A DNA stretch of 58,932 bases from Chiloscyllium plagiosum (Eukaryota), in NCBI RefSeq assembly GCF_004010195.1, contig NC_057739.1, positions 34,798,129 to 34,857,060 on the forward strand, in the 5' to 3' direction. Positions 27,766 through 58,552 of the stretch are shown here, piece by piece. Numbering within the stretch: the first letter of the stretch is position 1; every line of letters starts with the position of its first letter. The position numbers and the translations under genes are program-made. Below the pieces are notes generated by a model. The model ran no database searches. It saw only the letters and a list, made by a program, of their open reading frames with translations, and had not been told where the DNA came from.

Positions 27766-28356
27766 AACAGGAAATAACTGTCCAACCTAGTCCTGCTGAT
27801 TATACAGATGTGTAAAATATTCAAATGAAATTTTGAGAGTTTTTGTATGTAGAATTGATGGACTTACAAAAGGAATAAGGAATTGGTAGGTTTTGCTGTT
27901 TGTTGGTTTCATTCACCATCTTAATATAATTCTACATTAGAGATCTATTTCATCATGACATTTTCCTCTGCTGGACTTGGAAATGTGTGCAACTGTGTGA
28001 CAAAATATTTTGAATGATCCTGTTGCAAATGCGTAAAAGAATCTCTCGATAATTTGCTAAGGGAGGAAAAAAGTAATTGAACTTTTGTATCATGCAAATA
28101 CTTGTTTGGTTCAGACAATTTTTTTTTCCCCGTTTTTAGCAATAAGAAGAGAACAATCAAAGAGGCAGCAGCATGATGTGATATTTACTACAAAAGGCGG
28201 AAGCAGGGCGACAACACAAAGAAAGAAACATTCTCTGACGTCATTGAAAGCTCTCTTCCAGAGACTGCTACCATAGAAACTGACCAAGAGGTGCTTATCC
28301 CAGTTTAGCAGAGTCAGGTATACAGAAGCAGAAGAAAAAGATTGAAAAAATCTTCC

Positions 28357-29442
28357 AAGACTGTTACAATGGACACGGAACAAAATTTAAACACTCAATT
28401 GTATGTAGGTAATAGTGAAAAGAAACATAAGAAAAAGAAAGGATATTCTGCTTTGTTGTCGAAGTATGATAATTTGGAGACTGTTACAGTAGACACAAAA
28501 CACGACTTAAGCGATTTTCTGTGTGTAGGTAACAGCAAAAAGAAACAGAAAAGAAAGAAAAACCATTCTGCATCATTAGAGGGCTGTGATAGTTCAGAGA
28601 TACATACAGTGGACAGTGAACAAGACATAAAAAATCTCCTGTTTGTAGATAACAGTGAAAAGAAACATAAGAAGAAAAAGGATTGTTCTGCTTTGTTATT
28701 GGGGTATGATCATCTCGAGACTGTTCCAGCAGACGTTGAACAAGACTTAAACCATTTCACATCTGTAGGTAATAGCGGAAAAAAAAGGAAGAAAAAGAAA
28801 GACTGTTCTGCATCATTAACGGGCTGTGACAGTTCAGAGATACATACAGTGGACAGTGATCGAGACATAAACAATCTTCTGTTTGTAGGTAAAAGTGCAA
28901 AGAAACATCAGATAAAGCATTTTTCTGATTTATCATCAGGATATGATAATGTAGAGACTGTTACAGCAGAGAATGAACAAGACTTAAACCATTTCACATC
29001 TGTAAGTAATAGCGGAAAAAAACGGAAGGAAAAGAGAGGCCATTCTGCATCATTAGGGGGCAGTAACAGTTCAGAGATGCATGCAGTGGACAGTGAACAA
29101 GGCTTAAACAATATCCTGTTTGTCGATAATAGTGAACAGAAACATAAGAAGAAAAAAGATTGTTCTGCTTTGTTATTGGGCTATGATAATCTTGAGACTG
29201 TTCCAGCAGACACTGAACAGAACTTAAACCATTTCATGTCCATAGGTAATAGCGGAAAGAAACAGAAGAAAAAGAAAGATGCTTCTGCGTCATTGGGGGG
29301 ATGTGATAGTTCAGAGATACACACAGTGGACAGTGATCAAGACATAAACAATCTCCTGCTTGTAGATAATTGCGAAAAGGAATGGAAGCATCAGAAAAAT
29401 AAGAGGCGCAATTCTAAATTGGGAAATAAAGATGATGACTCA
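28357..29442 (+). repeat. TTF1: Coding tandem repeat: 9 units of 120 bp (40 aa) alternating A/B (240-bp higher-order), degenerate units to about 29718
   Basis: ETVxxDxEQDLNHF..GNSGKKxKKKK..SASLxGCDSS alternates with EIHTVDSEQDIxNLLFVDNSEKKHKKKKDCSALLLGYDxL. Confidence 0.95.
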
Positions 29443-30871
29443 GATATGCAAAACCCCTGCAAATCTGATCTTGGTGAAAATAAACTACAGGGGAAGAAGA
29501 AAAAATATGCCGTAGCATTAGAACCATGTGATGTTTCAGAGACTGTTTTGGTTGATGATCAAGACTTACAAATTTTCCAGCTTCCACAGAGTAATAAAAA
29601 CAAACTGAAGAAAAGGAAAAAAGACAGAAACAGTTCAATATTCAGTGAAGAATGCGACAGTTCAGATATGCAAAATCTTCAGTTAGGAGGTAATGGTGAG
29701 AAAAGAAAAAAAAATCATCTTTGTGGGTCACTGATAACGGAGGCTACAACGCACATGAGCTCTACAGAGATGAAGAAAGAGGGTCAACATTCTGAGTTGA
29801 TGGGTAATCAAGGAAACCAAATGAATAAACTAATACATCATTCCTACTCAGGTGAGACTGGTGTTTCAGTCTCTGCGGTAAAGACTAAACAAATACTGCA
29901 AAATGCCGGATTAGTGGAAAATGGTGATAATGAAAGAGACCCCCATGTCACGGCAGTAAAAACTGCTAAAGAGATTACAACAAAAGAGACCCCGCACACA
30001 ATACGGAATCCTGAGTTACTGACTAAAAGCAAGTGTCATTCCCATCGAACAGAAGAAAGAGTTAGGAAAAACTATTGTAAATCAGCAGAAGGTAGTGACG
30101 ATTTGGAGACTTGTGCAGAGGCTCATCTAGAAAGTGCAATATCAGCATATGTTGGTGTTGATACAGAAACATCAACCAAAAAATGCAAAAGGAGAAAAAA
30201 GAAAATGCAGTTTGAGAACATAAACAGAGATGTCCCCCCCAGTGGATCTGAAATTCCTCAAAAGCCTATCAAGCAATGTAAAATAAGCAACATTTTGTCA
30301 TTTGGAAATTATAGTGCAGACTTACTGGGAATAAATAATAAATCTTTCCAGAAACCTAAATTAAGTTGCAATGGAAGTGAAAATGTAGAGAAAGAAGCAA
30401 AAGTACCTTCCAAGGCTGTGAATATTAGTGGCGTTGCAGCAATCACTGGAGAGCAGATTGAGCAAATAGTGCATGATTCTAGCACCACTTGTGAAGAAAC
30501 TGTTAAAACCTCCAAGAACTACATACAAAAGAGAGGCCGTCCACTTGGATGTAAGAATTCTGGCAGACCCAAAAAATTGACGCAGGATGGAACTACACAG
30601 TCTCCTGCAACTTTAAGAAGACAGAAAAATAAACAGCCACAGCAGCGTATGACAGAACTTAATAATAATGCTAGCATCACAACTGTTGAGAACTTTAAGT
30701 TGGAGGAAGTGCCTGTTTGTCAAGATAAAGCTAAATGTAGTCAGATGGACAAATCAAAATTGACTGAGCTGCTTAAGGACTATATCCCTAATGTGGAAAA
30801 GCTGACAAATGATACGCTGTATAGCATATATAAATATGACCTTCCAAGGTTTCAAAAGTTTAAAGCTGAAG
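28369..30871 (+). CDS. TTF1: TTF1 coding exon 1 (exon probably starts at 28140); repeat-rich N-terminal region
   Basis: 2.5-kb open frame; strong Kozak acaATGG; ends LLKDYIPNV..YKYDLPRFQKFKAEG (recalled human DDLERFKEFKAQG) at GAA G|GTAAG; acceptor ttttttccccgtttttag at 28139. Confidence 0.9.
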
Positions 30872-33827: not shown

Positions 33828-34013
33828 GAATTTCCATCCGCCAAGGCAAGTTTACTGAGCAAGAGAATCAACAATTGCAGAAAAACCTGAAGGAATTAAT
33901 GGAGCTAACTGGAATTCGAAATGAATGGGACCTGTTACATGTTCCTGAATCCGTTGAGGAGATGTTAAGAATTAGACGGCTGAAACAGAATAATTTATTC
34001 TGTTGCAAACTAG
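33828..34013 (+). CDS. TTF1: TTF1 coding exon 2
   Basis: GISIRQGKFTEQENQQLQKNLKELMELTGI...FCCKL; tag/gtattt; phase 1-1, 186 bp. Confidence 0.93.
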
Positions 34014-34204
34014 GTATTTCTATAGGTCTAATTTCATTTTTATGCCTATATTATTGTATATATTAGCAGTGGATATGTCTCATTTTTGAGGTTTGCAGCA
34101 TCTGACAACCATCTCGTCCAGGTACTTATACTGATTGCACTCCTTTTATACCTGTTGAGCAATAGTTATTTACAAATCTTCTTGTTGCTGCCAGTAATAT
34201 CTTA

Positions 34205-34416
34205 GCTGAAAATGTGTTGCTGGAAAAGCGCAGCAGGTCAGGCAGCATCCAAGGAACAGGAGAATCGACGTTTCGGGCATAAGCCCTTCTTCAGGAATGA
34301 AGGGCTTATGCCCGAAACATTGATTCTCCTGTTCCTTGGATGCTGCCTGACATGCTGCGCTTTTCCAGCAACACATTTTCAGCTCTGACCTCCTGCATCT
34401 GCAGCCCTCACTTTCT
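34205..34416. mobile_element. PLE-derived palindromic mini-element with hammerhead
   Basis: 86-bp inverted arms 34204-34289/34299-34384; TSD CTGCCAGTAATATCTTA (34188-34204, 34417-34433). Confidence 0.88.
34261..34298 (-). ncRNA. Minimal type I hammerhead ribozyme motif (intact core)
   Basis: - strand CTGAAGA-A-GGGC(TTAT)GCCC-GAAAC-GTC at 34294-34267. Confidence 0.7.
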
Positions 34417-34500
34417 CTGCCAGTAATATCTTACTCAATTTCACTTCCCTTACTTGCATTCAAAATTAATTTTATATATTTGAAAATTTCCTTTTTATAG

Positions 34501-34579
34501 CTGAAAATATTCCAAGACCATGGAAGTGTGTTTATCAGCGAGCTAAGAGAATGTATCACCCTCATCGATGTAAAGGCAG
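34501..34579 (+). CDS. TTF1: TTF1 coding exon 3
   Basis: AENIPRPWKCVYQRAKRMYHPHRCKGR (recalled human RNIARPWKLIYYRAKKMF..YKGR); 79 bp, phase 1-2. Confidence 0.94.
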
Positions 34580-36107
34580 GTGGGCTAACCTGGAATAACT
34601 CACATCAGTTATTTACTTTGTGTAGCAATTTAATTATTTGCATGTTAGGTTTTCTTTGCCAATGTTCAGCTTCTGTAATAATAAATTAAATAAATCAAAA
34701 TTATAAAATTCAACTCTGGCCCAGTTGTATTTGAAATTATTTTGTTGGGGTGGCAGTAACTTTTTAGCATTTGGTGCTTTGCTTTTTGTGTGGCTGGTCA
34801 TTGATGCGAATGTAATGCCCTCTTAATTAAGTGTCACATTACTGGTGTGTTTCCATTCAATTAAGTTCTGCTCTCTGAGAGATTGTTGATGCTTCCTCTG
34901 AAATTTAAAAATCTGAGGTTTTTTTTGGTCAGTTTTCTCCCTTTCTCTTCCCTTACTTTTAGTTATCATTCTTGTTGTGTGAGCTTATAGGTTGAGTGTT
35001 TTCTTGTTGAGAAGTGTCATGCTTTCTTCACTTTGCACCAGAAGTAACCAAGTATTATCGAATAGGAGAAAATGCAGGAAAATTGGAAGGATATGCTGAC
35101 ACAGTTAGATGATATAGTGAGAGAAGGGGCTCACATAGAGTTTAAAAAGGCATGAACTGGTTGAACCTAATAACCCATTTCAATGTTGAAAATTCTGTAC
35201 CATTCCATCAGCTTCACCCTTTACCATCCTGTTTCCCACTAGCTCAGTGTGGTAATGCCACTGACGGTGCACCTAATGCCCTCCAAGTTCGAGACTAACA
35301 ACGTGGCACAAACTGGAAATAAACCCTTGTTTGTTTAGCTCAATTATGTATTGCATTCATCAGCTGAGCCAATGCCGAACCTCAAATTGTGCTACAAAAA
35401 AGCAAGTTCCTTCTGGAAAATTTTGTGTCAAGATCAGATGCTTTTTCACAGGGAATATGAGTTGAAGGATGCTCCAGGTTATGCTTCTGCATTTTCTAGC
35501 AGATATAATGCATAATTAATGATACATTACCACTGACCAGCAATCTGCACTGAACTGCTCCACAACCTTCCTAGATCTCCACACTTCTCCAATTCTGGTC
35601 TTTTGAACATCCCTGCTTTCAATCCCTCCACCATAGGTGGCATTCTGCTGCCATGGCCCTAGATGCTGCAATTTATCCCTAAACCTCACCATTTCTCTAC
35701 TTTTCTCTTTGATTTTTCTTTTGACTTATCTCTTTGACTCATGAGATCTTATTGCCCCTTCTGTTGGTAGATGTCAAAATTCAAGCCTTTCTTTTTAAAC
35801 GTAGATGAAACTGATAAAATTGCGTTGGTTTATTAGTGCAGACTGTTCCTTGATCTGAGAGTATTTTTTGTTTTAAATCCTTCCCATAGGAAAAGCACTT
35901 TTTTGCAGCATTCCCTAAATATATGCTGGTTCCGGCCAGGATTTATACTTATGAATTTGTGTCCAGTCATTTAACATCAGATTACAATCTTGCTGGGTTA
36001 TAGTTATAGTCATAGCTGACACTATAGTTCCTGGCACTACTTAATTTTATTTGTTCTTATTTTTGTACTTAGTGTTCTGAGATTAACTATAGATGTGTTG
36101 TTATTAG

Positions 36108-36238
36108 GTACTCCAAAGAAGAACTGAACAAATTGCAACGTTTGCAAATGCAGTATGGAAATCACTGGAAGAAAATTGCACAATTCATGGAACGTTCTGA
36201 TGGATCTGTTATATGCCGAGCAAAAACAATGAAAAATT
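36108..36238 (+). CDS. TTF1: TTF1 coding exon 4 (Myb-like repeat)
   Basis: YSKEELNKLQRLQMQYGNHWKKIAQFMERSDGSV; 131 bp, phase 2-1, GTAAGT donor. Confidence 0.94.
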
Positions 36239-36499
36239 GTAAGTTGGATTAATAAAACATGCATTTTCTTCCTATTGTGAAGTTCTGTGGAAGTGTAGTC
36301 ACTATCTCTGTTGGATATCTACAATAACCTAGTAATTAATAGGAATACAATATATGTAGAAATATTTTATTGTTCAGTGTAGTTGGGTAATTCTGGTTAA
36401 TCTAAAAGATGACAAAAAATCCAGATGACTTAAACTGCCTCCTTGAAATAGCCTTGCTCAGAGATCTAACAAACCCTATGGCAGGAAACTCTTCCCCTG

Positions 36500-37365
36500 C
36501 ATTAAACTGTAGTGAGGATTCAAAGGTGCTTCAGCGTGATTTGAAGAAGTTGAGTGGGCAAATGTATTGTAGATGAAGTATAATGTAGATTAGTATGAGA
36601 TTATCCATTTTGGTATCAAAACAGGAAGGCATATTATTGTCTGATGCATTGGGAAAGGGGAAGGTGTAATGAGATCTGGCTGTCCTTGTACACCCATCAG
36701 TGAAAGTAAGTATGTATGTTCAGCAGGTACTGAAGAAGGCAAATGGCATGTTGGTCTTCATAACAAAAACGCTTGCATATTTGAGCAGGGATAGTTTGCT
36801 ACAACTGTACAGGGCCTTGGTGAGACTGTATCTGGAGTTTCAATCTCCTTACCTGAGGAAGAATATTCTGGCTTTGGAGGGAGTACAACAATTTACCAGA
36901 CTGATTCCTGGGATAACAGGACTGACATATGAAGGCAGACTGGATTGGTTAGGACTATATTCACTGGAGTTTGGAAGAATGAGAAGGGATCTCATAGAAA
37001 ACTGTAAAATTCTACAGGGCTAGGCAGGGTAAATGGAGGTAATATGTTCCCAATGGTTGGGGAGTCCAGAACCAGGAGTCACAGTCTAAATAGGTGAGTA
37101 GACCATTTATGACTGAGATGAGAGGAAATTTCTTCACCCAGAAACTGGTGAGCCTGTGGACGTTTCTGTTACAGATATCAGTTGAGGGCAAATTGTTGAA
37201 CATTTTCAAGGAGTTAGATATTGTTTTGAGGGCTAAAGGGATCAAACGGTCTGGAAAGAGAATAGGGTATTGAGTTGGATGATTAGCCTTAATCATATTG
37301 AATGGTGCAGCATGCTCAAAAGGCTGTGTGGCTTATTCCTGTTCCTATTTTCTGTATCTATGATT
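36500..37365 (+). mobile_element. CR1-type LINE 3' part
   Basis: KKANGML, LYRALVRLYLE, RRDLIE; CR1 3' UTR. Confidence 0.85.
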
Positions 37366-37789
37366 CCCAGCAAGAAGCTGCAGTGATGTTACCAAAGATT
37401 TTTAAGGCAGCCATTCACATTAAAGAATTCCCTCAAAAAGCCAACGGGGAAATGATGAACACTAAAGTGAAACCACTTTATTGAAAAAAATAGCAAAATA
37501 AGTATTGGTAATTACACCTGGAGTGAAGATGGAAGCTGAAATATTGTGAAACTATGTAATAATTGTTTTTAAATTATTATTTTATATTGTAGAGTCTGTT
37601 ATATATCACTATTAAGGTTAATTACATTTATTAAAAATATTTCACAGTCAACTCCATGGTTCAGCAGTCATTATTGCTGAGGTCACCGTTAAAATCTCTT
37701 CTTCACTAAAAAATTAAAAAGTTAAAAGATAAAATGAAACCTTGTCACCGCATCAGCAGAGTGTTGCAGTGACAACACTCGGGTGCAAC

Positions 37790-38040
37790 AGAGTGTTACA
37801 AGGGGACATAAATTTAAGGTGAAGGGTGGAAGGTAGAGGGGAGATGTCAGGAGTGGGTTCTTTACCCAGAGAGTGGTGGGGGCATGGAATGCGCTGCCTG
37901 TGGGAGTGGTAGAGTCAGAATCTTTGGTGACCTTTAAGCGGCAATTGGATAGGTACATGGATGGGTACTTAAGCTAGGACAAATGTTTGGCACAACATCG
38001 TGGGCCGAAGGGCCTGTTCTGTGCTAAAGTATTCTATCAA
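37790..38040 (+). mobile_element. CR1-type LINE 3' end
   Basis: Similar to 25140-25420; gggccgaagggcctgttctgtgct tail. Confidence 0.8.
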
Positions 38041-38066
38041 CTAATTTCAGTGACACTGGCTCTTAA

Positions 38067-38629
38067 TGTGGTGAGGTACCAACAACACAGACTGTGATGG
38101 AGTCATGAACAACTAATAACAATTTCAGGATTTCTCCGTTAATCTGTGCTTGCACTAAATCCTGAAGTTCCAATTAGATTTGGAGGGGAATTGACAGTGA
38201 ACAACTTACTAACAGTTTGTATTCAAAATCTTCAGCAAATTCTAGGCCATCATGTTTTCCAAATGTAAGTGTTTCAAAGACTAGTAGGTTGAAATAATTA
38301 AATGCATATTAATCTTTTCTCATGGTACCACTCTGATCTATGAATCAAAAGGTCATGGATATAGACAAATAATCTCAGTTGACATTTCACTGTATGTCTG
38401 TCATAATGTTTTATTGTCTGGTTCTTTTTAAACATAAAGCATTAAACTAAGCACAGGGGGACACAAAAGAACCCACGGCATTATTCATAGAAGGGCAAGA
38501 ATTCACTGTCAATTCTCCTGCAAATCTAATTGGAACTTTAGCGCAAACACAGATTAATGGAGAAATCCTGAAGTTGCTGTCTGCCATTCATAACTCCACC
38601 ACAGTCTGCATTGTTGATACCTCACCACA
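38067..38629. repeat. Diverged inverted repeat of about 130 bp (38067-38201 / 38502-38629); right arm sits inside a Deu-SINE remnant
   Basis: gttccaattagattt..gaattgacagtgaa versus ttcactgtcaattc..aaatctaattggaac. Confidence 0.8.
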
Positions 38630-38679
38630 AGAGTGGTTTCATGTAGTGTCCTGACCAATATTTATCCCTCAACCAGACC

Positions 38680-39040
38680 GTCAAAGCCCTTTGTGCTTCT
38701 GATTTCCAAAGCCTTTCCCCAGTTAGTAAACAGACTATGCTTTAACTAATCTGGGCATAACCTCACACTTTCCCAGATTGTATTTCATCTGCTTCTTCGC
38801 CCATGTCCTAATCTGTCCATGTTCTTATGCAGCCTCTCTGCTTCCTCAATGCTACCTGCCTGTCCACCTATCTTTGTGTCATTTGCAAATTTAGCAACAA
38901 TGCGCTTAGTCCCTTCTTCCAGATCATTAATGTATAACATGCATAGTTGTGGAACCCAGCACTGACCCCTGCGGAACTCCACTAGTCACCGGCTGCCATC
39001 CTGAAAAGATCTCTCTGTCCCCAGTTTCTGCCAAACTACA
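38680..39040 (-). mobile_element. CR1-type LINE RT fragment
   Basis: YINDLEEG..AKFANDTKIGG. Confidence 0.8.
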
Positions 39041-39399
39041 TTGTGTTGACCTTAAAGCATCACCTCAAATTTTTAAAATTTTCATCCTGGTGTAAAAGTC
39101 ATTCAAATGTCTCCCCTCGCCTGTCTGTATAATCTGTTCCAGCCCTACAATCCACTTGAGATATCTGTGCTGCCTCTTAAGCATCTGAATTTTAATCCCA
39201 TTCACGTCTACAGCTGCAAAGGCCTGAGACTCTCGAATTTCCACCCGAAACTGATTTGTCTGTGTACCTCTTTATAAAATACTACTTAAAAACTCATTGA
39301 TCCAAGATTTTGATTTACCTAATAGGTCCTAATGTGGCTCAATATGAACTTTTGTTTTAATTTTTCTTCCTTTTTGTGATGTTAAACATTCCTGGTTGG

Positions 39400-40440
39400 A
39401 CCAGCATTTATTTTCTGTTGCTAATAGCCCTTGAGAAGGTGGTTGTGAACTGACCTGTACAACTGATACAGTCCTTGAGGTATAGGAACATCCATGTTTA
39501 GGAAGGCAGAATTTTAACCAGTTGTTGGAAAGGAATTGATAGAGTTCCAAGTCAGGATGATATTCAGCATGGCAAGGAACTTGTAGCTGGTGGTGTTCCC
39601 ATGCATATGTGACCCTTCTAGATGGCAGAGATTGCATAATTGAAGGTACTATCAAAGAAGTCTTGGTGAGTGACTGTATTGCTGCCGCTCTGCATTAAGT
39701 GTGAAGGGAATTAATGTTCATAGAAGGTGGGGTGCCAATCAAGCAGTGTGCTATGTTCTGCATTGTGTCAAGTTTCTTCACTGTTGTTGGAGTTTATATC
39801 CATCCAGACAATTGGAGACTATTCCATTATACTCCAGATTTGCATCTGGAGGTGAATTGCTTGCCAAAGAATAATTTAGTTGCTGACCTGATCTTGTAGC
39901 CATGGTATGTATATGGCTGGTTCATTTAAATTTCTAGTTAATGGTAGCACCCAAGATTGTGATAGCGGGAAATTCAGTGATGGTATTGCCATTGAATGCT
40001 CATAGCGATGGTTAGATTCACTCTTGTTGGAGATGGTCATTGCCTGGTATTTGTGTGGGACAAGTATTATTTGCCAATTAACGGTCTAAGCATTGATGCT
40101 GTGCAGGTCTTGCTTTATGCAGATGTAAATTGCTTCAGTATCTGAAGAGTCGCAAATGGTGCTAAACATTGTGCAATCATTAGTGAGCATCCCCACTTCT
40201 GACTTTACGATGGAGGATTTAATGAAATTGATGAAAAAGAGGAACTTCGGCAGAGATGTCCTGGGGCTGAGATGATTGACCTCCAACAACCACAACTATC
40301 AACTTTTGTGCTAGGCATGACCCCAACCAGTGGAGAAATTTGCTCCAATTCTCATTGAATCCAGTTCCAATAGGGCTCCTTGATATCACAGTTGGTCAAA
40401 TGCTGCCTTGCTGTAAAGGGCACTTATTCTCACCTCACCT
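39400..40440 (-). mobile_element. Old CR1/L2-group LINE fragment
   Basis: Collinear similarity to 9040-10030. Confidence 0.7.
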
Positions 40441-40701
40441 TTAAAGTGCCTTACAAAGTCTTACTGTGTTAAAGGTACTACATAAATACAAGATTTCTTT
40501 GTTTAAAAATATTTTTTAAAAACCAAATTGCTTATTTAACTTTTATGTAAATGTATTAGTTATATCAACAAATTCAGCAAAGTAACTACTGAGCAACATT
40601 GTATTTTATAAATTGAAACTCTAATCATTTAGTTTCTTATTGGATCAACCTGTTTTGGTCAAAAATGTAAATTTCTTAAATAGGTTTTCTTTTTTAAACA
40701 G

Positions 40702-40930
40702 CTTTGAAAATTGGACCTTGGAGCAAGGAGGAGGAGAGGGCGTTAATGAACATAATGGAGCAGCTAATGAGAAAAAAGATACAAGAGGCACCCTATAGTC
40801 CAATGAGTACAGTTCCAAATTCCAATGCATTTATTTCAATTCTGCGTGAAAAGCTATACAGGGAAATTCCTTGGTTTGCAGTTGCAGACAAAATGGAGCA
40901 CAGAAACTGGACGCAGTGTAGGCAGAAATG
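40702..40930 (+). CDS. TTF1: TTF1 coding exon 5 (Myb-like repeat)
   Basis: GPWSKEEERAL...LREKLYREIPWFAVADKMEHRNWTQCRQKW; 229 bp, phase 1-2. Confidence 0.96.
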
Positions 40931-41239
40931 GTGAGCTAATATTTCTGATTGTTAGTGAAGGTTTGAAGTTACAAGAAGTTTCTTTCCAATTAAGCAATGA
41001 GCATAAAATACGAGGTGAATTTGAAAATTGTCTGTATTTCTGTAGATTTTGGTCTATGGCCATAATTGTTATCAGGTTTGCCTTAATTTGCTGTTTTAGT
41101 TAATTATATTGTGTTTTGGTCACAACAGAGTTGACATACTTAAAACTTGTTTCATTACCATATTTTCACATAATCGCACATGGTTAGCTACGCTGACCAA
41201 TTTTTACTGGTTGAACTTTGGTAATTTTGAAACATATTA

Positions 41240-41895
41240 AAGAGCAGGAGTAGGCCATTCAGACCTTTGAGTTCGTTTTGCCATTCAGTATGACCAAGGC
41301 TGATCAACCAACTCAATATCCTGTTGCCTCTTTCTCCCTTTTGGCTCTAAAATCTGTATCTAACTCATTCTTCAAAACATGCGATAACTTGGCCTCAACT
41401 GCTTTTTGTGACAGTCAATTGAACAAGCTCACCACTCTTGATGATGAAATTTCTTCTCATCTAAATCCTAAGTGGCCTACCCTGTATATTTAGACTAACT
41501 GCTGGTTCTGGTCTCCTGGGTCATCAGTGTGATACTTCTGGCGTTTACTCTGTCTTGTCCTGTTAAAATTTTATTGGTTTTATGACAGTTTCCCCCGTTC
41601 TTCTAAACTCCTAGTAAATATAGTCCAAAATAATCTAGTCTCTCTCCATACGTCAGTTCTACCATTCCAGAAATCTGTCTGGTAAAACTTTGTTACTGTC
41701 CTTCTGTAGGTAAAATATCCTTCCTCAAATAAGGAATCCAAAACTGCACGTGATACTCTAGGTTGGCCTCCTCAAGGCCCTGTACAATTGCTGCAAGACA
41801 TCCCTGCTCCTGTGCTCGAATCCTCTCCCTATGAAGGCCAACGTACCATTTGCCCCCTTTGCTGCCTGCTGCACTTGCATGCTTACTCTCAGTGA
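41240..41895 (-). mobile_element. CR1-type LINE 3' part
   Basis: LEYHVQFWIPYLRKDIL; tail gagcaggagtaggccattcag. Confidence 0.8.
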
Positions 41896-41899
41896 TTGG

Positions 41900-42395
41900 C
41901 AGGACCGACCAGACCTCCCAGTCACCGTTCATTTCAATTCCCCCAACCACTCCCTTTCTGACATGACCATCCTTGGCCTTCTCCATTGCCAAAACAGACC
42001 ACAGCGCCTTTTGGAGGAACAGCAGAGGGTGCCTTATCTTTTGACTGGGCACCCTTCAGCCTGGAGGACTCCACATTGTGTTCTCCAATTTCAAATAACC
42101 TCCTTCCCCACCTTCCGACTCTCTTCATTCTTTCCTCCTCCCTTCCACCAACCGGATTCATTTCTCCCATTGACTAACCAGATTGCATCTTCTGCCTAAC
42201 TTCACCTATCCCCACTTCACCACCCTGCCCCGCCTCCCCCTTTATCTGCAGCTCTCCCCACTCCCACTCCCAGTCTTGGAGAAGGGTTACACCCAAAACG
42301 TTGACTTCTGCACCTCCTGATAGTGTCTGGCTTGCTGTGTTCTTCCAGACTTCTGCCTGTCTCCTTTGGATTCCAGCATCTGCAGTTGTTTTCTC
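41900..42395 (+). mobile_element. Neptune-type PLE 3' fragment with degenerate hammerhead
   Basis: VHFNSPNHSLSDMTILGLLHC; gaagggttacacccaaaacgtt; end ccagcatctgcagttg. Confidence 0.75.
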
Positions 42396-43028
42396 TACTC
42401 TGTGATTGACATTGAACAGTAACAAGATGATTTACTGTTCAGAATAATTACCAATGTTAAACAATTTCAATGCAATCCTGCATTGTGTAGACCTTAAAAC
42501 TGTCAAATACCTGAAATCTTTGGGTCACTGTTATAGAAATTACTGAACAAGATTTTTTCTCACCTCTATTCCAAATGTTTTGGAAATCATTTCTAAACTG
42601 TTTAAAGACTGAACCACTAAACAAATATGTGGAGTTAAGACTAGTACAGATACGGTAATCCAACACTCATAATGAAGTACTGAGATTGAAAGAAAGGAAG
42701 AAAGCTATGTCAGCATTTCAGAGAGAATCTAGAATATGAGAGGGTGCCTAGATTCTGCACACAATTCTGTAACAGATTGGTGCATTTTAATTTGATACGC
42801 TGGTTCACCAAGGTACGCAACTAAAAACAGCTATTTATAGCTGGAATTAAATTCCTTGATGCAATATGGTTACATTGCAGAAACTCATGCAGACACGTGG
42901 AGAACACACTAACTCCACACTCACCCACAGATGGAATCGAACCCGGTCCCTGGCACTGCTGACCACTGTGCCTTTTAAAATATCAACATGAATGCAAAAT
43001 TTTTAATTTTATTTTTATTCTCTGAAAG

Positions 43029-43115
43029 GATGAACATTCTGACTACAAAAATGTCTGGAGGAGTGAGACCTATTCGATTTCACCATCACCAGTCAAGAAT
43101 TAATCTCATCAAAAG
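43029..43115 (+). CDS. TTF1: TTF1 coding exon 6
   Basis: MNILTTKMSGG...RINLIKR (recalled human TEILTKRMTNG..SLIER); 87 bp, phase 2-2. Confidence 0.92.
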
Positions 43116-44234
43116 GTAAAATGTATGCAGGGACTAATATGAGGCAACAAAATAATATAAAGTAACTGTTGACTTAGAAGCGTCTGATGAAAGCAGCCAT
43201 ATGATAAGATGGGACATTTAATTGCTGAGTTAAACAGCTGGTTAAAAATAAATTGCAGGGTAATTAATAAAAACTCTTTACTAAAAGCTCTTTACTAAAA
43301 ACAGCAGCATGGGGCTGGTTGTATACAGTGCAGGCCATCTAGTAGTATAAATTAAGGTGTTCTCATATTATAATTTTGCAGCATTAATGTTGTCTAAACT
43401 CTGTTTTTTTTGCTCTTGTTACTCCTCTGAAATTGTCAGCAGTTGCTGGACTTAAAACTAAAGTTACTTCGCAGGTCACACAGGATCTGTGATGAGAGAT
43501 GTAGAGTTAACATGCCCCCAGTGTACCCAAGTAAGAGGATATATTTTGGTTTAATACTTCACCTAGCTGCATTTCCTCAGTACTGACTGAAGTGTTTACC
43601 TTGATTATTTTGCTGAAGTCTTGGCATGGGACTTGAACATGTGACTGTCTGACTCAGGCTTTGAGCGAAACCATGGCTGAGAACTTGCGGAACTCTTTTA
43701 TGGTTCTTAGAGATATGGAAGGAGGTGAGAGCGGAAGTTTGATAAATGAAAATGTATTTAAAACCTGTTACGTTTCAACATTTTCCAATTCTGATTAGAC
43801 TTGAAAATTGAAATCAGTTTTGTTTTCTTGTCACAGATGCTGCCATACCTGCTAAGTGTTCATTGGGTTTATATCTTAATTTTGAATTCTAGCGATTTTG
43901 TTTAGTAATTTTTAAAGTGTACATATTCCCAGTTAAATGTGGAAATTGCAAAGTTGGTGTCGATGTACAGGTGTATTGTTGAATTCACCATACGGATAGC
44001 AAAAAAGAAAAATGACTAAACTGGCAAGAGCTTCCTCTTTACGTTATTAGCCAAACAATAAAAACCTTAGAAAAGTTTTTCACCTGTTGAATGAGGTGTA
44101 ATTGGGTTTTTAACAATGTAAATTCATAATCATTGATGAAATTGGATCCAGTCCAACTTTCCTTTAGAGATTTGTCAAAAGGTTTGTTAATGGAAACTGT
44201 AGCAAGAACCTTACCTGCTTTATTTTCATAACAG

Positions 44235-44300
44235 GTTGTACCTGTTGAACATTGATGATGTTGGTGATGTCGACTGGGAGGATCTTTGTAGTGCTGTTGG
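44235..44300 (+). CDS. TTF1: TTF1 coding exon 7
   Basis: LYLLNIDDVGDVDWEDLCSAVG (recalled human LYEINVEDTNEIDWEDLASAIG); 66 bp. Confidence 0.94.
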
Positions 44301-44984
44301 GTAAATAACACTATAATTTTCATATTTATAGTGCAGTAACATAAAGACAATAGGTCTAGTGGACACAATTGGCTTTGCAGCCTACAAGCTAACGGCAATA
44401 ATTGCAGAGTGTATGTGGGATGATATTTGGTCTGGTGATGCCATTCGAAAATAATCTTTGGCCGGGAGATTGGGGGATAGGTGTATGCGTTTCATTTTAA
44501 TCTACAGTTTATGATATTAGTTTTATATCATCTCACTTGAGACTCTTGTTGATACCACTTTAAGATTTTGATGCTGGTATTGTTATTTGTAACGTTGGAT
44601 TACTCTGTTATTATTTCTGGATGCCTATTTACGTGGTGGAATGCAACTGTTGTAGCCCTCAGTGATGAGCTAATTATTGTAATGCTTAATTCTCATTCAA
44701 TTGTCATCCTATTGTTTGATTGATACCGGTAAACTTAATCTATGGGTCAGATATGTAATACAGCATTTCATTACTGACTGAAGAATTTTGTGTAGCATTG
44801 AAAGTATGAATTTACTGTCTGTTGCAGTTATTTCTATTCTCAATTTTCTAGCTTGAATTTCACAATGGAATTTGAAATAAAATACAATTTTTCAACAAGG
44901 TTAATGTGATTTTATTTGCTTTTTACAGGATGATTACCATAATTAAGATTTAATTGTACAATTATGTTGCTTATTTTTTTCTAG

Positions 44985-45070
44985 AGACGTTCCTCCTTTA
45001 TTCGTTCAAAAGATGTTTTATAAATTGAAAGTTCGTTATGTACCTGATTGGCCCAAAAAATCCTTTGGAG
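44985..45070 (+). CDS. TTF1: TTF1 coding exon 8
   Basis: DVPPLFVQKMFYKLKVRYVPDWPKKSFG; 86 bp, phase 2-1. Confidence 0.94.
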
Positions 45071-46411
45071 GTTAGTATCTAAATTCAGTGACTGAATAGT
45101 TTACTGATGATTGTTTTATATTGATGACAACAGAAAATGTTCACCTTGTTAATGAAAAGAGCAGTTGAAAGCATCAACTTTATTTTCCAGTCATTCTTGT
45201 TATTTGCTCTCTGAAATAAGGCAGCCAGGTGGATGGCACAATTGACCTTGGCATAATTGCTTCTAGAATTGGAAATGGCTGTTGCTGTATTTCTATTATT
45301 GCTGGTGTTGATTCACTTATTAGATCACATATTGTATCTCCAATGCACTGAAAGCATAACCTTTTGACTTTAAGAATTTGCTTTACGGTTTAAGATACAA
45401 ATTTACTTTTGATCCATTGGCTTTAATTTATCAGAAAAATGTCTCCATAATTTCATAATGTGGAATTGGAGATCCTGTTGGAAAACAGAATTTTCAATCT
45501 TAATTTTTTTTTCCAGTTGGTTCTGAAACTTTACCAAGAGTTATACTGACTAGTTCATTTAAGTCTGTAATTAAAATGATCATGTATCATTATGAAGTGG
45601 GTACCATAGACATAGTATCCTCAGGAACTTCATTACATTTGAGCAGGAGAAAAACTGTAACAGCTATTACCTGTGTGGCTTTTCATGCTGAACGTTTGTG
45701 AACAATATCCTGTAGTAGTCTCTAATATTCTGTAATCCTATTTTTACACTGGTATTTGTTTTTAAGTTGTAGTGCTTCCTTGTAGCCTTTACATTTTTGT
45801 ATCTGGTGTGATATTTTAATCAAGATAACTAAAAAGTTTAATTAAGCCTCTAAATTCATAGTGCAAGATAATGTGCCATTTTGGTATTTATTTGCTCTGT
45901 ATAAAGTACTGTATACAAGAATAATGTACCATGAAATAAACTCACTCAAATTGCAGCATTTGAGATGGCAATTCTAATACCATCAGAAGGCAAAACAGTA
46001 CTTTAGTCTTTGACTCCATAGTTGTTGACACCATTTGACTTTCAGACAAAGCTATTGTGCCACTATCTCAATGCATGACCTGACATTTGTGATGTTGACA
46101 CTCATCCTAGAAAGCCAACTGGCATAAGCTCTGTAATTAGTTTTTATATTAAATACTAATGGATCTTTATTGACAGTCAACCAAACCTTGTTCTGAGTTA
46201 GAATCCAAGCAGATGCCTTTTAGGAAAATTAACATAAACTTGCAGTGGCTTTTACAGTATTAATGGTAGGTGAAGCTGCCTCTGCTTATCGTGTTAATAA
46301 GTAAATGAAACAGCAAATTCCACTAACAGTACTTAATAAATCAGGAAATTGTTAGCCAGGTTTTACTACTTTGCCGAAAACTTCACTATGCTAGTGTTTC
46401 ACTCTTATTAA

Positions 46412-46530
46412 ATTAGATTCCCTACGGTGTGGAAACAGGCCCTTCAGCACAACAAGTCCACATTGACCCTCCAAAGAGTAACCTACCCAGACTCATTTCG
46501 CTACATTTACCCCTGACTAATGCACCAAAA
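46412..46530 (-). mobile_element. HE1-type SINE 3' fragment
   Basis: ttagattccctacggtgtggaaacaggcccttc matches the HE1 tail. Confidence 0.7.
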
Positions 46531-47206
46531 CATGAGACGTTTTGGTACTTAACCGCTTGGTAGCCACTAAACAGCAGGAGAACTTGGGCTTTGTTCATTC
46601 AATTCATTGACAATATGATAAGACTTAATTGCGACCAAACAATGTTGCCGTACAATGTACAATGCCGTACAAGACTTAATTGCCGACCAAACTGGAGAAT
46701 TACTTGTACAAAATGTCTCATTCCTTTAGATTTTAATTATTGGGACATGTTAAAAAAAACACCATCTTTCTTTCATTCTTCTTTCTAAATTGATTTTCTA
46801 TTAAATTAAGTATCCCAATTTGAACTTCTTGGTTTAGATTTTGAATGTCTCAATAAAATTTTACAATCTGAAGAGATACTATTGCTTTCCCGATCTCTCA
46901 GTTACAAGGTTCTTGTGAATCTCTGCACAAAAATGCTGTAATTACTGCAAGTTGCCTATAAATAAGAACGGATCACAAATTTAAGTGTGAACAGCAAGCG
47001 TCATCAAATTGCCATTGATGACAAAATTTTGATCATAGTATATGTATGTGTACTGGGGAGGAAAACTGACTCCTTTAGCAAAGGCTTCAATGCTTAGAAT
47101 CTTTGTGCACTAAGATGCATGATTGTACAGCAAATCAACAGAAGCAACCCCGGAAAGTTTTATGTTAGTTTCTGAATTTTGGAACCCTGCATTTTATTCT
47201 GTTCAG

Positions 47207-47630
47207 TAAATAAAACACGTCTGGCTTCTCTGAAACTACACTGAAATCTAAGACTTATAGTTTGAAACTGCTCTTTATATTGTTGGATTCAAAATTTTTA
47301 ATATATATAACTGGTAAACGTGGGAGTCATTATCCTTACTCTTATTGCTCTCCTGTAAGCTTTGGCTTTTTTTTAATTCTCCTGGAACATGGATGTTGTT
47401 GGCTGTGCCAGCAGTTATTAAATAAAACACGTCTGGCTTCTCTGAAACTACACTGAAATCTAAGACTTATAGTTTGAAACTGCTCTTTATATTGTTGGAT
47501 TCAAAATTTTTAATATATATAACTGGTAAATGTGGGAGTCATTATCCTTACTCTTATTGCTCTCCTGTAAGCTTTGGCTTTTTTTTAATTCTCATGGAAC
47601 ATGGATGTTGCTGGCTGTGCCAGCAGTTAT
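47207..47630. repeat. Near-perfect 212-bp tandem duplication
   Basis: 47207-47418 versus 47419-47630; 3 substitutions seen. Confidence 0.95.
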
Positions 47631-48450
47631 TGCACAACTCTAGTCGCCCTTGAGAAGATGGTGATGAGCCACATTTTTGAACCATTGCATATAGACCTAT
47701 AATGCCATTAGGGAGGGCATTCTAGAATTTTGACCCAGTGATAATGAAGGGGCAGCAATACTTTTCCAAGTCAGGATAATGAGTGGAAGGGTTTGGAGGT
47801 GGTAAAGATGGTGATGTTCCCATGTATCTACCAACCCGTCCTTCCAGATAGAAGTGGTTGTGGCCTTGGTAGGTGCTGCCGAAAGAACTTTGGCAAATCT
47901 TTGTAGTGCATCCTGTAGATAGTATATACTGCTGATACTGAGCATCAGTCATAAAGGGAATGGGTGCACTGCTAATCAAATGGGCTGCTTTATCCTGAAT
48001 CAGTGTTGTTGGAGCTGCACCCATCCAGTCAAGTGGAGAGTATTCCATCACACACCTGACTTGTGCCTTGTAGATGATGAACAGGTGTTGGGGAGGCAAA
48101 AGGGGCTAGATTAGAATAGTGCTTTAAAAGCACAGCAGGTGAGGCAGCATCCGAGGAACATGAAAATCGACGTTTCGGGCAAAAGCCCGTTCAACAGGAA
48201 TGAAGGCAGGTATCCTCCGGGGTGGAGAGATAAATGGAAGAGGGGTGGGGGTGGGGAGAAGGTAACCGAGAGTACAATGTGGGGATGAAGGTGATAGGTC
48301 AGAGAGGAGGGTGGAGCGGTGTTAGGGAGTCAGGAGTAAATTACTTTCTGCAGTATTCCTAACTCTGACCTGCTGTTGCGGCCATAGTATTGATATGGTG
48401 TGTCCGGTTTAGTTTCTGTTCAAAAATAACTCCCAGAATATTATGATGTG
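47580..48450 (-). mobile_element. CR1/L2-group LINE, continuing at about 51005-51510 after a PLE insertion; contains a PLE end fragment at 48105-48320
   Basis: IYKAQVRCVMEYSP..IQDKAAHLI C-terminal motif; collinear with other family copies on both sides of the insert. Confidence 0.75.
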
Positions 48451-50438: not shown

Positions 50439-50478
50439 AAGCCTGTAATCCATTAAAGACTTAATGGATTACAGGCTT
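50439..50478. repeat. Perfect 18-bp inverted repeat with 4-nt loop at the SINE 5' junction
   Basis: AAGCCTGTAATCCATTAA-AGAC-TTAATGGATTACAGGCTT. Confidence 0.95.
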
Positions 50479-50815
50479 GTGGGCGGCACGGTGGCACAGT
50501 GGTTAGCACTGCTGCCTCGCAGCGCCAGAGACCCGGGTTCAATTCCCGACTCAGGCGACTGACTGTGTGGAGTTTGCACGTTCTCCCCGTGTCTGCGTGG
50601 GTTTCCTCCGGGTGCTCCGGTTTCCTCCCACAGTCCAAAGATGTGCAGGTTAGGTGAATTGGCCATACTAAATTGCCCGTAGTGTTAGGTAAGGGGTAAA
50701 TGTAGGGGTATGGGTGGGTTTCGCTTCGGCGGGTCGGTGTGGACTTGTTGGGCCGAAGGGCCTGTTTCCACACTGTAATCTAATCTAATCTAATCTAATC
50801 TAATCTAATCTAATC
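50479..50815 (+). mobile_element. HE1-type tRNA-derived V-SINE, full length, young, (TAATC)n tail
   Basis: A box tggcacagtgg, B box ggttcaattcc, V-domain tgtggagtttgcacgttctccccgtgtctgcgtgggtttcctccgggtgctccggtttcctcccaca, CR1-like tail; CpGs intact. Confidence 0.95.
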
Positions 50816-51862: not shown

Positions 51863-52131
51863 GAATTGTGGACTTTTTGCATGATCAAATAGTTCCAAAA
51901 TTGGAAGAAATAATAAAGAAAAAGGAAGACCAATGCAATTTTAATGTTTCTAGTGATTCTTATCAGTCACTACAGCATGAGTTCAAATTAAGTGATATTT
52001 TTGATGATGATGATGACGACGATGATGAGAAAGATGAAATTGAGAAAATAGATGAATTGGAAGAAATGATTGGAACCTCATTTCAGAGTCAGTCAGAGAA
52101 ACCAGTTGAAAATCGACCCCACATAACATGA
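51863..52131 (+). CDS. TTF1: TTF1 last coding exon with acidic tail
   Basis: IVDFLHDQIVPKL..FKLSDIFDDDD (recalled human IIDYLYETTLPLL..FRDIF); TGA 52129-52131; summed CDS 3636 nt. Confidence 0.93.
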
Positions 52132-57960: not shown

Positions 57961-57979
57961 GGAGGGTGGTTTTGAAGGC

Positions 57980-58520: not shown

Positions 58521-58552
58521 AGCGTAAGGAAGGAGTAATATGGTCATGGAGA

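What the first reader, a model, noticed from the sequence alone, without database searches (positions are those of the whole stretch)
28357..29718. Higher-order 40-aa repeat array in the TTF1 N-terminus
Seen: nine 120-bp units alternate A/B, so the array grew as a 240-bp dimer, followed by about three degenerate units. The only indels evident are frame-preserving (one codon lost in unit 5). Each unit has an acidic/Ser-Thr block, a hydrophobic patch and a Lys cluster. Known: the mammalian TTF-I N-terminus is a fast-evolving, Lys-cluster-rich negative regulatory/oligomerisation region. Inference: a lineage-specific multivalent charge-block module (repeated NLS/NoLS, CK2-like sites) that could tune nucleolar condensation or rDNA looping, possibly co-evolving with terminator number.
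Basis: partly seen in the sequence, partly recalled or inferred. Interest (0 to 1): 0.72.

Follow-up and report, generated by a model that had tools for sequence, protein, structure and literature searches.

The report
Lysine-rich repeat array in shark TTF1
A bamboo shark's ribosomal-RNA termination factor carries extra copies of a 40-residue lysine-rich segment that probably act as redundant nucleolar address labels, as already shown for the unrelated repeats of the mouse protein, so the array is real but fairly ordinary.

Summary
The array is real: nine 120-bp units (unit 5 is 117 bp) alternate A/B, with 78.7% identity within a type and 64.5% between types. It lies in an intact 9-exon TTF1 gene of Chiloscyllium plagiosum and has no stop codon (neutral P=0.0013). 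The dimer predates the split from the zebra shark. Other sharks expanded differently, and unrelated arrays arose in falcon, parrots, tortoises, marsupials and muroid rodents. Constraint is weak (omega about 0.6; 72% identity to the orthologue, like the 70% of the plain linker). Most likely these are disordered, redundant basic nucleolar/nuclear localisation signals whose number drifts by unequal crossing-over. Mouse TTF1 repeats are already shown to work this way (PMC6747939), though they are not detectably homologous. Tuning of condensates, looping or terminator number is untested and has no support here.

The parts
28140..30871 (+). Large TTF1 exon holding the whole N-terminal region (acceptor AG ends at 28139, inferred; donor GT at 30872; CDS from 28369)
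   Evidence: Exon end and CDS rebuild P0001 exactly. Acceptor scores 8.8 on a recalled splice matrix; its use is inferred.
28146..28356 (+). Broken ancestral N-terminus (about 65-70 codons, including the ancestral first basic unit), now presumably 5' UTR; frame breaks near 28179, 28295-28301 and 28338-28350
   Evidence: Frameshift-aware alignment to 4 of 4 shark N-termini scores 65-119 against shuffle maxima of 29-46; 2 in-frame stops.
28173..28181 (+). Two-codon upstream ORF (Met-Met-stop) at the place of the ancestral start region
   Evidence: The only ATGs between 28141 and 28369; aligns with the Met-Met of other sharks.
28357..28476 (+). Unit 1 (A type); start ATG at 28369 (A at -3, G at +4) is codon 5 of the unit
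   Evidence: 31 of 36 residues identical to zebra-shark unit 1.
28477..28596 (+). Unit 2 (B type)
28597..28716 (+). Unit 3 (A type)
28717..28836 (+). Unit 4 (B type); longest basic run (7)
28837..28953 (+). Unit 5 (A type, 117 nt); one codon lost in or next to the Lys run, basic cluster eroded, long branch
   Evidence: Against U3: 20 nt differences, 15 residue changes, 3 synonymous-only codons; branch 0.18 against 0.03.
28954..29073 (+). Unit 6 (B type)
29074..29193 (+). Unit 7 (A type)
29194..29313 (+). Unit 8 (B type)
29314..29442 (+). Unit 9: 5' half A-like, 3' half of the ancestral long type; first unit of the old core
   Evidence: 5' half 82-88% identical to U3/5/7, 3' half 37-40% to all of U1-U8; matches zebra-shark unit 5.
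29443..29718 (+). Units 10-12 (96, 126 and 54 nt): ancestral elasmobranch core, older than the A/B array
29719..30871 (+). Non-repetitive low-complexity linker, then the start of the conserved C-terminal region (from about residue 800)
   Evidence: 70% identity to zebra shark for residues 456-799
33828..52131 (+). Eight further coding exons (33828-34013, 34501-34579, 36108-36238, 40702-40930, 43029-43115, 44235-44300, 44985-45070, 51863-52131) encoding the Myb-type DNA-binding region; stop TGA at 52129-52131

Best explanation
The array is a translated, probably disordered extension of the TTF1 N-terminus, made of redundant basic clusters on neutral spacers. Origin (inferred from orthologues): elasmobranch TTF1 already had about five divergent units of roughly 40 residues. 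In the ancestor of carpet, mackerel and ground sharks, a segment joining the 3' half of the first unit to the 5' half of the second was duplicated. In carpet sharks two such copies diverged into A and B and were then duplicated as a pair by unequal crossing-over: 4 extra units in the zebra shark, 8 here. The old N-terminus was lost and translation now starts at a Met inside unit 1. Function (inferred by analogy with mouse TTF1, not shown): the clusters of 5-7 Lys/Arg add up to import TTF1 into the nucleus and hold it in the nucleolus through electrostatic contacts with acidic nucleolar proteins and RNA, while the Myb region binds the terminators. Selection keeps the reading frame and most of the basic clusters. 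It does not keep the copy number, the spacers, or any single unit.
For: SHOWN. Intact gene. No stops (neutral P=0.0013). K/R retention above neutral: 45 against 33-35 simulated, P=0.007-0.018; D/E retention not above neutral: 47 against 46, P about 0.45. Omega 0.58-0.65 between units. The array is 72% identical to zebra-shark units, the plain linker 70%, the C-terminal region 87%. Unit 5 has lost its cluster. Leading units per species: 12, 8, 11, 8 and 7 in five galeomorph sharks, 6 in sawshark, 3-4 in five batoids, with different periods: 80, 79, 41, 77 and 75 aa. AlphaFold2 gave no confident fold (pLDDT 44, pTM 0.15); no Pfam family reached its cut-off for the exon ORF. The dead N-terminus in the same exon gathered at least 3 frame breaks in about 210 nt, while the 1,074-nt array has none. 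FROM PAPERS. Mouse repeats are semi-redundant NoLS; their strength follows basic-run length; one repeat suffices and a second copy did not improve localisation (PMC6747939). K-block regions target proteins to nucleoli (PMC11938373), and human TTF1 is among the top K-block IDRs (bioRxiv 10.1101/2025.02.27.640591).
Against: No localisation experiment exists for any shark unit. Shark and rodent units are not detectably homologous, so the function is carried over by analogy only. The departure of omega from 1 is marginal: 2dlnL 3.86 (MGK) and 5.11 (GY), and 2.93 without U5. The K/R test starts from a consensus root that already holds 6 K/R and assumes one tree, although gene conversion is likely. 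No shark cluster reaches the 10 basic residues of the dominant mouse NoLS (at most 7 in 10). The low pLDDT rests on an 11-sequence alignment. No transcript evidence was seen. Repeated expansion in at least six lineages could instead reflect selection.
Confidence: 0.66

Rival explanations
1. Adaptive valence dial: the number of basic blocks is selected to set nucleolar partitioning, oligomerisation or rDNA looping, and tracks rDNA copy or terminator number.
For: 18 of 110 named TTF1 proteins carry an N-terminal array, in at least six lineages with unrelated units, and the unit of every lineage contains a basic cluster. K-blocks promote condensation in vitro (PMC11938373). Cartilaginous fishes have high rDNA copy numbers (bioRxiv 10.64898/2026.06.09.731232). 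TTF1 level limits rDNA output (PMC12326227).
Against: A random window of the same length holds a basic cluster 51-96% of the time, so six lineages of six has a probability of about 0.12 (my product of the fractions). Rays and the chimaera have no young array; 92 of 110 proteins lack one. Charge segregation is not higher in array-bearing N-termini. Unit 5 decayed. Doubling the mouse repeat did not improve localisation. Species specificity is placed in the C-terminal 31 residues (PMC11358750).
Confidence: 0.15
2. Part of the array is removed by splicing. Units carry acceptor- and donor-like signals at the same register, so any pair excises a whole number of units in frame (intron gain by tandem duplication, or an exitron).
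For: At codon 18, 6 of 9 units score 7.5-10.3 as acceptors (the gene's real acceptors score 3.1-9.9), and 5 of 9 score 5.1-5.5 as donors (real ones 3.9-10.3), all in phase 1 (recalled matrix). The mechanism has a precedent (PMC3265369, abstract).
Against: Acceptors scoring 6 or more occur 4 times per kb across the window, and the six are copies of one site. No YTNAY branch-point motif lies 15-46 nt upstream in 9 of 9 units. No array donor reaches 6. Absence of stops and retention of lysines imply that the array is translated. The database models of 5 sharks include their arrays.
Confidence: 0.08
3. The units form a folded repeat, or each is a specific docking site for a partner (like the ARF site in mouse repeats), with A and B specialised.
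For: Each unit has a short hydrophobic patch, and A/B differences are shared with the zebra shark. Repeats often diverge and are then fixed (PMC5120217).
Against: No confident model, no Pfam match, no usable Atlas hit (weak evidence). The hydrophobic patch has the highest pairwise omega, about 1.1. Orthologous units are not more conserved than the linker, unlike the vertical conservation in PMC5120217. ARF is described as amniote-only (PMC9178385).
Confidence: 0.06
4. The gene copy is defective, or the broken 5' end is sequencing error and the true protein is longer.
For: At least 3 frame breaks just upstream of unit 1. The dead stretches are still 32-64% identical to other sharks, similar to living regions. 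The window has a 141-base N gap and a 212-bp near-exact duplicate.
Against: The zebra-shark model from another assembly starts at the same Met. The remaining 1211 codons over nine exons are intact, and the C-terminal region is 87% identical to zebra shark. The ATG at 28369 has a strong context.
Confidence: 0.04
5. The array is an assembly artefact.
For: Tandem repeats are prone to mis-assembly; no reads were available to check.
Against: No two units are more than 89% identical, and homologous arrays exist in four other shark assemblies.
Confidence: 0.01

Closest known systems
N-terminal repeats of mouse TTF1 (five 25-aa repeats; Boutin et al. 2019, PMC6747939)
   Same: Same protein and same position; tandem units, each with a Lys/Arg run and a few acidic residues; uneven, apparently redundant clusters; number varies between related species (4-11 in six muroids).
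   Different: Unit of 40 aa arranged as an A/B dimer, proline-poor (2 Pro in 358 aa). No detectable homology with muroid units (best 0.4-3.5 bits against 2.4-5.0 for reversed sequences). Longest cluster is 7, not 10. The ARF partner is reported only in amniotes. Mouse TTF1 itself was not among my sequences; six other muroids stood in for it.
Nucleolar K-block + E-rich IDRs (King et al. 2024, PMC11938373; GIN cluster 23, bioRxiv 10.1101/2025.02.27.640591)
   Same: Lys blocks in a near-neutral polyampholyte (f+ 0.165, f- 0.159, kappa 0.33 against 0.17 shuffled), attached to a DNA-binding domain.
   Different: Acidic residues are scattered rather than forming E-rich blocks (longest D/E run 1 in U1-U8). 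The published z-scores were not computed.
Independent TTF1 N-terminal arrays in falcon (40 aa x 11.7), parrots (28 aa), tortoises (102 aa) and marsupials (about 60 aa)
   Same: Tandem amplification of a segment that contains a basic cluster, in the same region.
   Different: Not alignable to the shark units once K/R matches are neutralised: 0 of 13 exceed the shuffle maximum. The falcon and tortoise arrays are 92-99% identical between copies, so they are young or possibly mis-assembled.
General evolution of protein repeats (Persi et al. 2016, PMC5120217)
   Same: Relaxed purifying selection between paralogous units.
   Different: The strong vertical conservation of each unit is not seen, except for unit 1 (86%).

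Membership tests
Vertebrate TTF1 (Reb1/Myb-type Pol I terminator protein) | C-terminal Myb-type DNA-binding region | tested here: met
   PF00249 at 921-961 and PF13921 at 925-981, above the curated cut-offs
Vertebrate TTF1 (Reb1/Myb-type Pol I terminator protein) | Closest relatives are annotated TTF1 across vertebrates | tested here: met
   Of the 120 listed hits (of 170), the named ones are TTF1/TTF1-like or uncharacterised/hypothetical proteins with the same domains; no other family is named
Vertebrate TTF1 (Reb1/Myb-type Pol I terminator protein) | Conserved gene neighbourhood | tested here: inconclusive
   The 150 longest of 218 upstream ORFs gave only two retroelement hits in Pfam; the 68 downstream ORFs were not scanned
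Vertebrate TTF1 (Reb1/Myb-type Pol I terminator protein) | Binds rDNA terminators and stops Pol I | not testable with these tools
   Needs a binding or transcription assay
Mouse-type TTF1 N-terminal NoLS/ARF repeats | Tandem repeats at the N-terminus of TTF1 | tested here: met
Mouse-type TTF1 N-terminal NoLS/ARF repeats | A basic Lys/Arg run in each repeat | tested here: met
   5-7 K/R within 10 residues in 8 of 9 units; unit 5 has 4
Mouse-type TTF1 N-terminal NoLS/ARF repeats | Sequence homology to the 25-aa rodent unit | tested here: not met
   Six muroid arrays score no better than reversed or shuffled controls
Mouse-type TTF1 N-terminal NoLS/ARF repeats | NoLS activity | not testable with these tools
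   Needs a fusion-protein localisation assay
Mouse-type TTF1 N-terminal NoLS/ARF repeats | ARF binding through central acidic residues | not testable with these tools
   ARF is reported only in amniotes (PMC9178385); its absence in sharks was not checked in a genome
Nucleolar K-block + E-rich IDR | Intrinsic disorder | tested here: inconclusive
   pLDDT below 50 for 389 of 450 residues, but the alignment had only 11 sequences
Nucleolar K-block + E-rich IDR | Non-random Lys blocks | tested here: met
   7 K-K/R-x-K/R motifs against 1.3 in shuffles (0 of 2000 reach 7); kappa above all 300 shuffles
Nucleolar K-block + E-rich IDR | E-rich regions or acidic tracts between the blocks | tested here: not met
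   4-8 scattered D/E per unit and longest run 1 in U1-U8; judged by run length, not by the published z-score
Folded solenoid repeat of about 40 aa (ARM/HEAT-like; family features recalled) | Confident helical repeat fold or a profile match | tested here: not met
   No family at cut-off; pTM 0.15
Intron gained by tandem duplication / exitron | AG|GT site with a pyrimidine tract, duplicated in register | tested here: met
   (recalled matrix)
Intron gained by tandem duplication / exitron | Branch point, and spliced transcripts | tested here: inconclusive
   No YTNAY motif in 9 of 9 units; transcripts not available

The most novel reading that the evidence does not exclude
The TTF1 N-terminus is an evolvable valence dial. 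At least six vertebrate lineages (and several shark lineages separately) amplified a lysine-block segment because the number of blocks sets how strongly TTF1 partitions into nucleoli and occupies rDNA terminators, matching rDNA copy number or growth rate. In carpet sharks the in-register AG|GT sites could also let splicing set the number of units per transcript, and the fossil two-codon uORF could set the dose.
Probability: 0.12. Interest if true: 0.7.

Novelty: new member of a known kind. Interest (0 to 1): 0.3.

Why it matters
As a single locus it adds little: basic N-terminal repeats that localise TTF1 to the nucleolus are known from mouse. Its value is comparative. Boutin et al. state that it is open why TTF1 carries several repeats when one suffices. 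Sharks offer a natural series (3-12 units on a shared core, with different duplication breakpoints), in animals that probably lack ARF, and five other lineages built unrelated arrays. That makes drift versus valence tuning directly testable. I found no report of the shark array or of the recurrent expansions in searches of an open-access library; subscription papers are largely missing from it.

Tried and rejected
(1) A 4-unit (480-bp) final duplication, suggested by U3-U7 at 89%: identity at lag 4 (0.798) equals lag 2 (0.799), and the trees pair U4 with U6 and U5 with U3 or U9. Not supported; the order of duplications is unresolved.
(2) CK2 site enrichment: 7 against 9.3, rejected. The array has no S/T-P sites.
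(3) Special charge patterning of arrays: rejected.
(4) Homology with tetrapod arrays: rejected for 13 of 13. A result against a clean 'no homology': 20 of 98 non-chondrichthyan N-termini score above the best reversed control (10.3 bits; top 21.1), and the top 12 all fall at residues about 70-150 of birds and turtles. One ancestral motif may therefore be shared; inconclusive. The scores were run without composition correction, so its tetrapod hits are lysine bias and were not used.
(5) Breakpoints in A-rich Lys runs as a general mechanism: the falcon unit boundary appears to fall outside the run (read by eye). Not pursued.
(6) The unit in other proteins: a profile search found only 4 shark TTF1 proteins among 8000 scored candidates (it missed the known Heterodontus homologue, so it is weak). 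There is no second copy in the window.
(7) PDB search with the linker and the start of the domain (30100-30872): 0 hits. ESM Atlas: no usable hit.
(8) Simple NG86 omega of 0.51 (0.29-0.85) ignores transition bias; the ML values are used instead.
(9) The dead-N-terminus identity was read in the wrong frame; it was dropped and redone. One search crashed and was rerun. One tblastn inside one search failed and was replaced.
(10) Terminator co-evolution: no shark terminator data were found.
Left open: the four members of the P0001 cluster could not be listed (query could not be made), so isoforms with fewer units are unchecked. No orthologous DNA, reads or transcripts were available. The metagenome and viral contig collections were not searched. 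Ten unnamed hits were left out before every count (110 of 120 used), and 50 of its 170 hits were not listed. No paper supplements or figures were seen; Figure 6C of PMC6747939 (human repeats) bears on the comparison.
Full report
IDENTITY OF THE LOCUS. The longest ORF in the window (28309-30909, 866 codons stop to stop) matches a database protein named transcription termination factor 1-like of Chiloscyllium plagiosum at 100% identity (P0001, 1211 aa). Nine coding exons with GT-AG introns, from ATG 28369 to TGA 52131, translate to P0001 letter for letter. The Myb domains lie at residues 921-981. The finding is therefore the first 450 codons of an intact TTF1 gene. The 150 longest of 218 upstream ORFs gave only two retroelement hits in Pfam.

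THE OBSERVATION. Periods of 120 and 240 are found at 28358-29379. Nine units start at 28357, 28477, 28597, 28717, 28837, 28954, 29074, 29194 and 29314; unit 5 lacks one codon. For U1-U8, same-parity identity is 78.7% and cross-parity 64.5%, and the odd/even split is the best of 35. Lags of 2, 4 and 6 units give the same identity (0.80, 0.80, 0.78), so a dimer is supported and a tetramer is not. No pair exceeds 89% identity, so a mis-assembly is unlikely. The frame has 0 stops in 358 codons. Under neutral HKY evolution on the unit tree, 0.13% of 3000 simulations had no stop, with a mean of 9 stops.

Unit 5 has lost its cluster: 3 K/R against 5-7 in the others, and 15 residue changes from 20 nucleotide differences to U3. 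Acidic residues are scattered, and CK2-type sites number 7 against 9.3 in shuffles. Unit 9 is a hybrid whose 3' half is only 37-40% identical to the others. The start codon is codon 5 of unit 1.

A DEAD N-TERMINUS. Upstream of unit 1 the frame has two stops. N-termini of four other sharks align to 28146-28356 only through frame breaks near 28179, 28295-28301 and 28338-28350, plus a loss of 8-9 codons. Scores are 65-119 against shuffle maxima of 29-46 (12 shuffles each). The dead stretches are still 32-64% identical to those sharks, about as much as living neighbours (38-55%). The zebra-shark model starts at the same Met, so the loss is probably shared by carpet sharks (inference; its DNA was not seen). 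What remains of the old start region is a two-codon uORF at 28173-28181. This gives an internal control: about 210 nt released from coding gathered at least three frame breaks, while 1,074 nt of array gathered none.

HISTORY ACROSS CARTILAGINOUS FISHES. A profile built from the window's units finds these numbers of consecutive strong units: 12 in Chiloscyllium, 8 in Stegostoma, 11 in Mustelus, 8 in Carcharodon, 7 in Heterodontus, 6 in Pristiophorus and 3-4 in five batoids. Callorhinchus shows no clear match (13.3 bits against 8.7 reversed). Units 9-12 match Stegostoma units 5-8 (74%) and the core present in sawshark and rays, so the 'degenerate' units are the ancestors of the array rather than its debris. 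The extra units combine a 5' half like the second ancestral unit with a 3' half like the first (read from half-unit identities on 10-20 residues, so approximate). The A and B types are shared with Stegostoma, which has two pairs against four here. Other sharks expanded differently: monomers in Mustelus (period 41), another dimer in Carcharodon (77) and a different segment in Heterodontus (75).

RECURRENCE IN VERTEBRATES. I used 110 named TTF1 proteins (120 listed of 170 hits, ten unnamed left out; the set is mostly birds, mammals and turtles, with no amphibian and one ray-finned fish). Of these, 18 have an N-terminal self-match above twice the best of eight block shuffles: 5 sharks, 1 falcon (40 aa x 11.7), 2 parrots (28 and 57 aa), 2 tortoises (102 aa), 2 marsupials (60 and 118 aa) and 6 muroid rodents (24-26 aa x 4-11). 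None of the 13 tetrapod arrays aligns to the shark array beyond shuffles once K/R matches are neutralised. Their units contain basic clusters, but so do 51-96% of same-length windows in array-free N-termini, so this is no evidence of selection (about 0.12 for six lineages, my product). One result points the other way: 20 of 98 non-chondrichthyan N-termini score above the reversed-sequence maximum with the shark profile, the best at one site in birds and turtles. A single old motif may be shared.

SELECTION. ML omega among units is 0.58 (GY) to 0.65 (MGK). The test against 1 gives 2dlnL 5.11 and 3.86, and 2.93 without unit 5. Lys/Arg are retained above neutral (45 against 33-35, P 0.007-0.018), while Asp/Glu are not (47 against 46). 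These tests assume one tree and a consensus root. Against Stegostoma the array is 72% identical, the old core 74%, the plain linker 70% and the C-terminal region 87%; unit 1 is 86%. The array is thus under the same loose constraint as the rest of the N-terminus. PMC5120217 (abstract and one results section read) describes relaxed selection between repeat copies as general, but followed by strong conservation across species, which is not seen here.

PHYSICAL CHARACTER. Residues 1-358 are a neutral polyampholyte (f+ 0.165, f- 0.159), low in aromatics (4%), with kappa 0.33 against 0.17 shuffled. Array-free TTF1 N-termini have a median kappa of 0.36. AlphaFold2 on 450 residues with 11 sequences gave pLDDT 44 and pTM 0.15. 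No Pfam family reached its cut-off, and the Atlas gave no usable hit. This fits disorder but does not prove it.

MECHANISM. Shown: a coding, frame-constrained, lysine-retaining, otherwise fast-evolving array of variable length. Taken from papers: in mouse, five 25-aa N-terminal repeats carry semi-redundant basic NoLS motifs whose strength follows run length; one repeat suffices, a second copy adds nothing, and central acidic residues bind ARF (PMC6747939, parts 1-3 of 5 read: abstract to discussion, no figures). NPM1 mediates the transport (bioRxiv 10.1101/2024.02.11.579707, passages). K-block regions localise proteins to nucleoli and aid condensation (PMC11938373, passages). TTF1 has a top-ranking K-block IDR (bioRxiv 10.1101/2025.02.27.640591, passages). 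The N-terminal domain is described as inhibitory, oligomerising and disordered, and species specificity is placed in the last 31 residues (PMC11358750, passages). Inferred: the shark clusters (5-7 basic residues in 10) add up to a nuclear and nucleolar targeting signal; extra copies arise by unequal crossing-over between pre-existing similar units, are tolerated, and decay singly, as unit 5 did. ARF is reported only in amniotes (PMC9178385, passages), so that part of the mouse function probably does not apply. Confidence 0.66.

RIVALS. Adaptive tuning of valence (0.15) has the recurrence in its favour, along with high rDNA copy numbers in cartilaginous fishes (bioRxiv 10.64898/2026.06.09.731232, passages; it does not mention TTF1 or terminators). 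Against it stand the rays without arrays, the unit-5 decay and the mouse saturation result. Mammalian terminators are given as T1-T10/11 (PMC12326227, passages). TTF1 is linked to rDNA looping, and terminator co-evolution appears only as a reference title (PMC8157237, passages). I found no shark terminator data (search 54). In-frame splicing of units (0.08): six units have acceptor-like and five have donor-like sites at one register, all in phase 1, but the background is 4 such acceptors per kb and no branch-point motif was found (recalled matrix; precedent PMC3265369, abstract only). A folded or partner-specific repeat (0.06), a defective gene or 5' sequencing error (0.04) and an artefact (0.01) are unlikely for the reasons given in their entries.

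MEMBERSHIP AND NOVELTY. The protein is TTF1. The array most likely works like the mouse NoLS repeats but is not a homologue of them; it is an independent instance of a known kind. Searches returned no paper on the shark array or on recurrent expansion; the library lacks most subscription journals. Unchecked: transcripts, reads, orthologous DNA, the members of the P0001 cluster (could not be made) and all paper supplements.

VERDICT. Real, and correctly seen in outline, but largely anticipated by the mouse work. Interest 0.3. The comparative series and the fossil N-terminus are the parts worth following.

Noticed in passing
window 28146-28356: Ancestral TTF1 N-terminus broken by at least 3 frame breaks; the start has moved to a Met inside repeat unit 1, apparently also in the zebra shark.
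   Followed up: yes
window 28173-28181: Two-codon uORF left by the old start region, ending 187 nt before the main ATG; it could limit TTF1 translation.
   Followed up: partly
window 28409, 28529, 28649, 28769, 28889, 29246, 29366: Acceptor- and/or donor-like sites at the same register and phase in seven units; any pair would excise whole units in frame.
   Followed up: partly
window 29851-29852: Strong internal AG|GT site in the linker (donor 10.7, acceptor 9.2, phase 1 like the real exon end); a candidate for alternative splicing of the large exon (recalled matrix).
   Followed up: no
P0007 (Heterodontus isoform X2), about residue 370: By eye it lacks about 40 linker residues present in Carcharodon, roughly one degenerate unit; deletion or splicing is unknown.
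   Followed up: no
P0051, P0052, P0060, P0075, P0082, P0076, P0119, P0098, P0100, P0109, P0110, P0111, P0113: Unrelated N-terminal TTF1 arrays in falcon, parrots, tortoises, marsupials and muroid rodents; Phodopus shows alternating unit types by eye.
   Followed up: partly
P0008 residues 230-422 and batoid proteins to about residue 390: Further very divergent units downstream of the core, suggesting that much of the elasmobranch N-terminus derives from old repeats (no composition correction).
   Followed up: no
window 47207-47631: 212-bp tandem duplicate with 3 mismatches in the last intron; a recent duplication or an assembly overlap.
   Followed up: partly
window 1065-1205: Run of 141 N (assembly gap) inside a retroelement-rich stretch.
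   Followed up: no
window 314-823 and 22639-22953: Reverse-transcriptase (RVT_1) and endonuclease (below cut-off) fragments of non-LTR retroelements; no other gene was detected upstream.
   Followed up: partly
window 57751-58750: CpG-island-like stretch (GC 0.58-0.66, CpG o/e up to 0.88) about 5.6 kb past the TTF1 stop; possibly the promoter of a neighbouring gene or a young repeat.
   Followed up: no
window 8301-8651 (+) and 50453-50779 (-): Two near-identical ORF translations, that is two copies of one interspersed repeat; the second lies beside a (TAATC)8 microsatellite at 50776-50816.
   Followed up: no
window 52379 and 52548: First AATAAA signals after the stop codon; candidate polyadenylation sites.
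   Followed up: no
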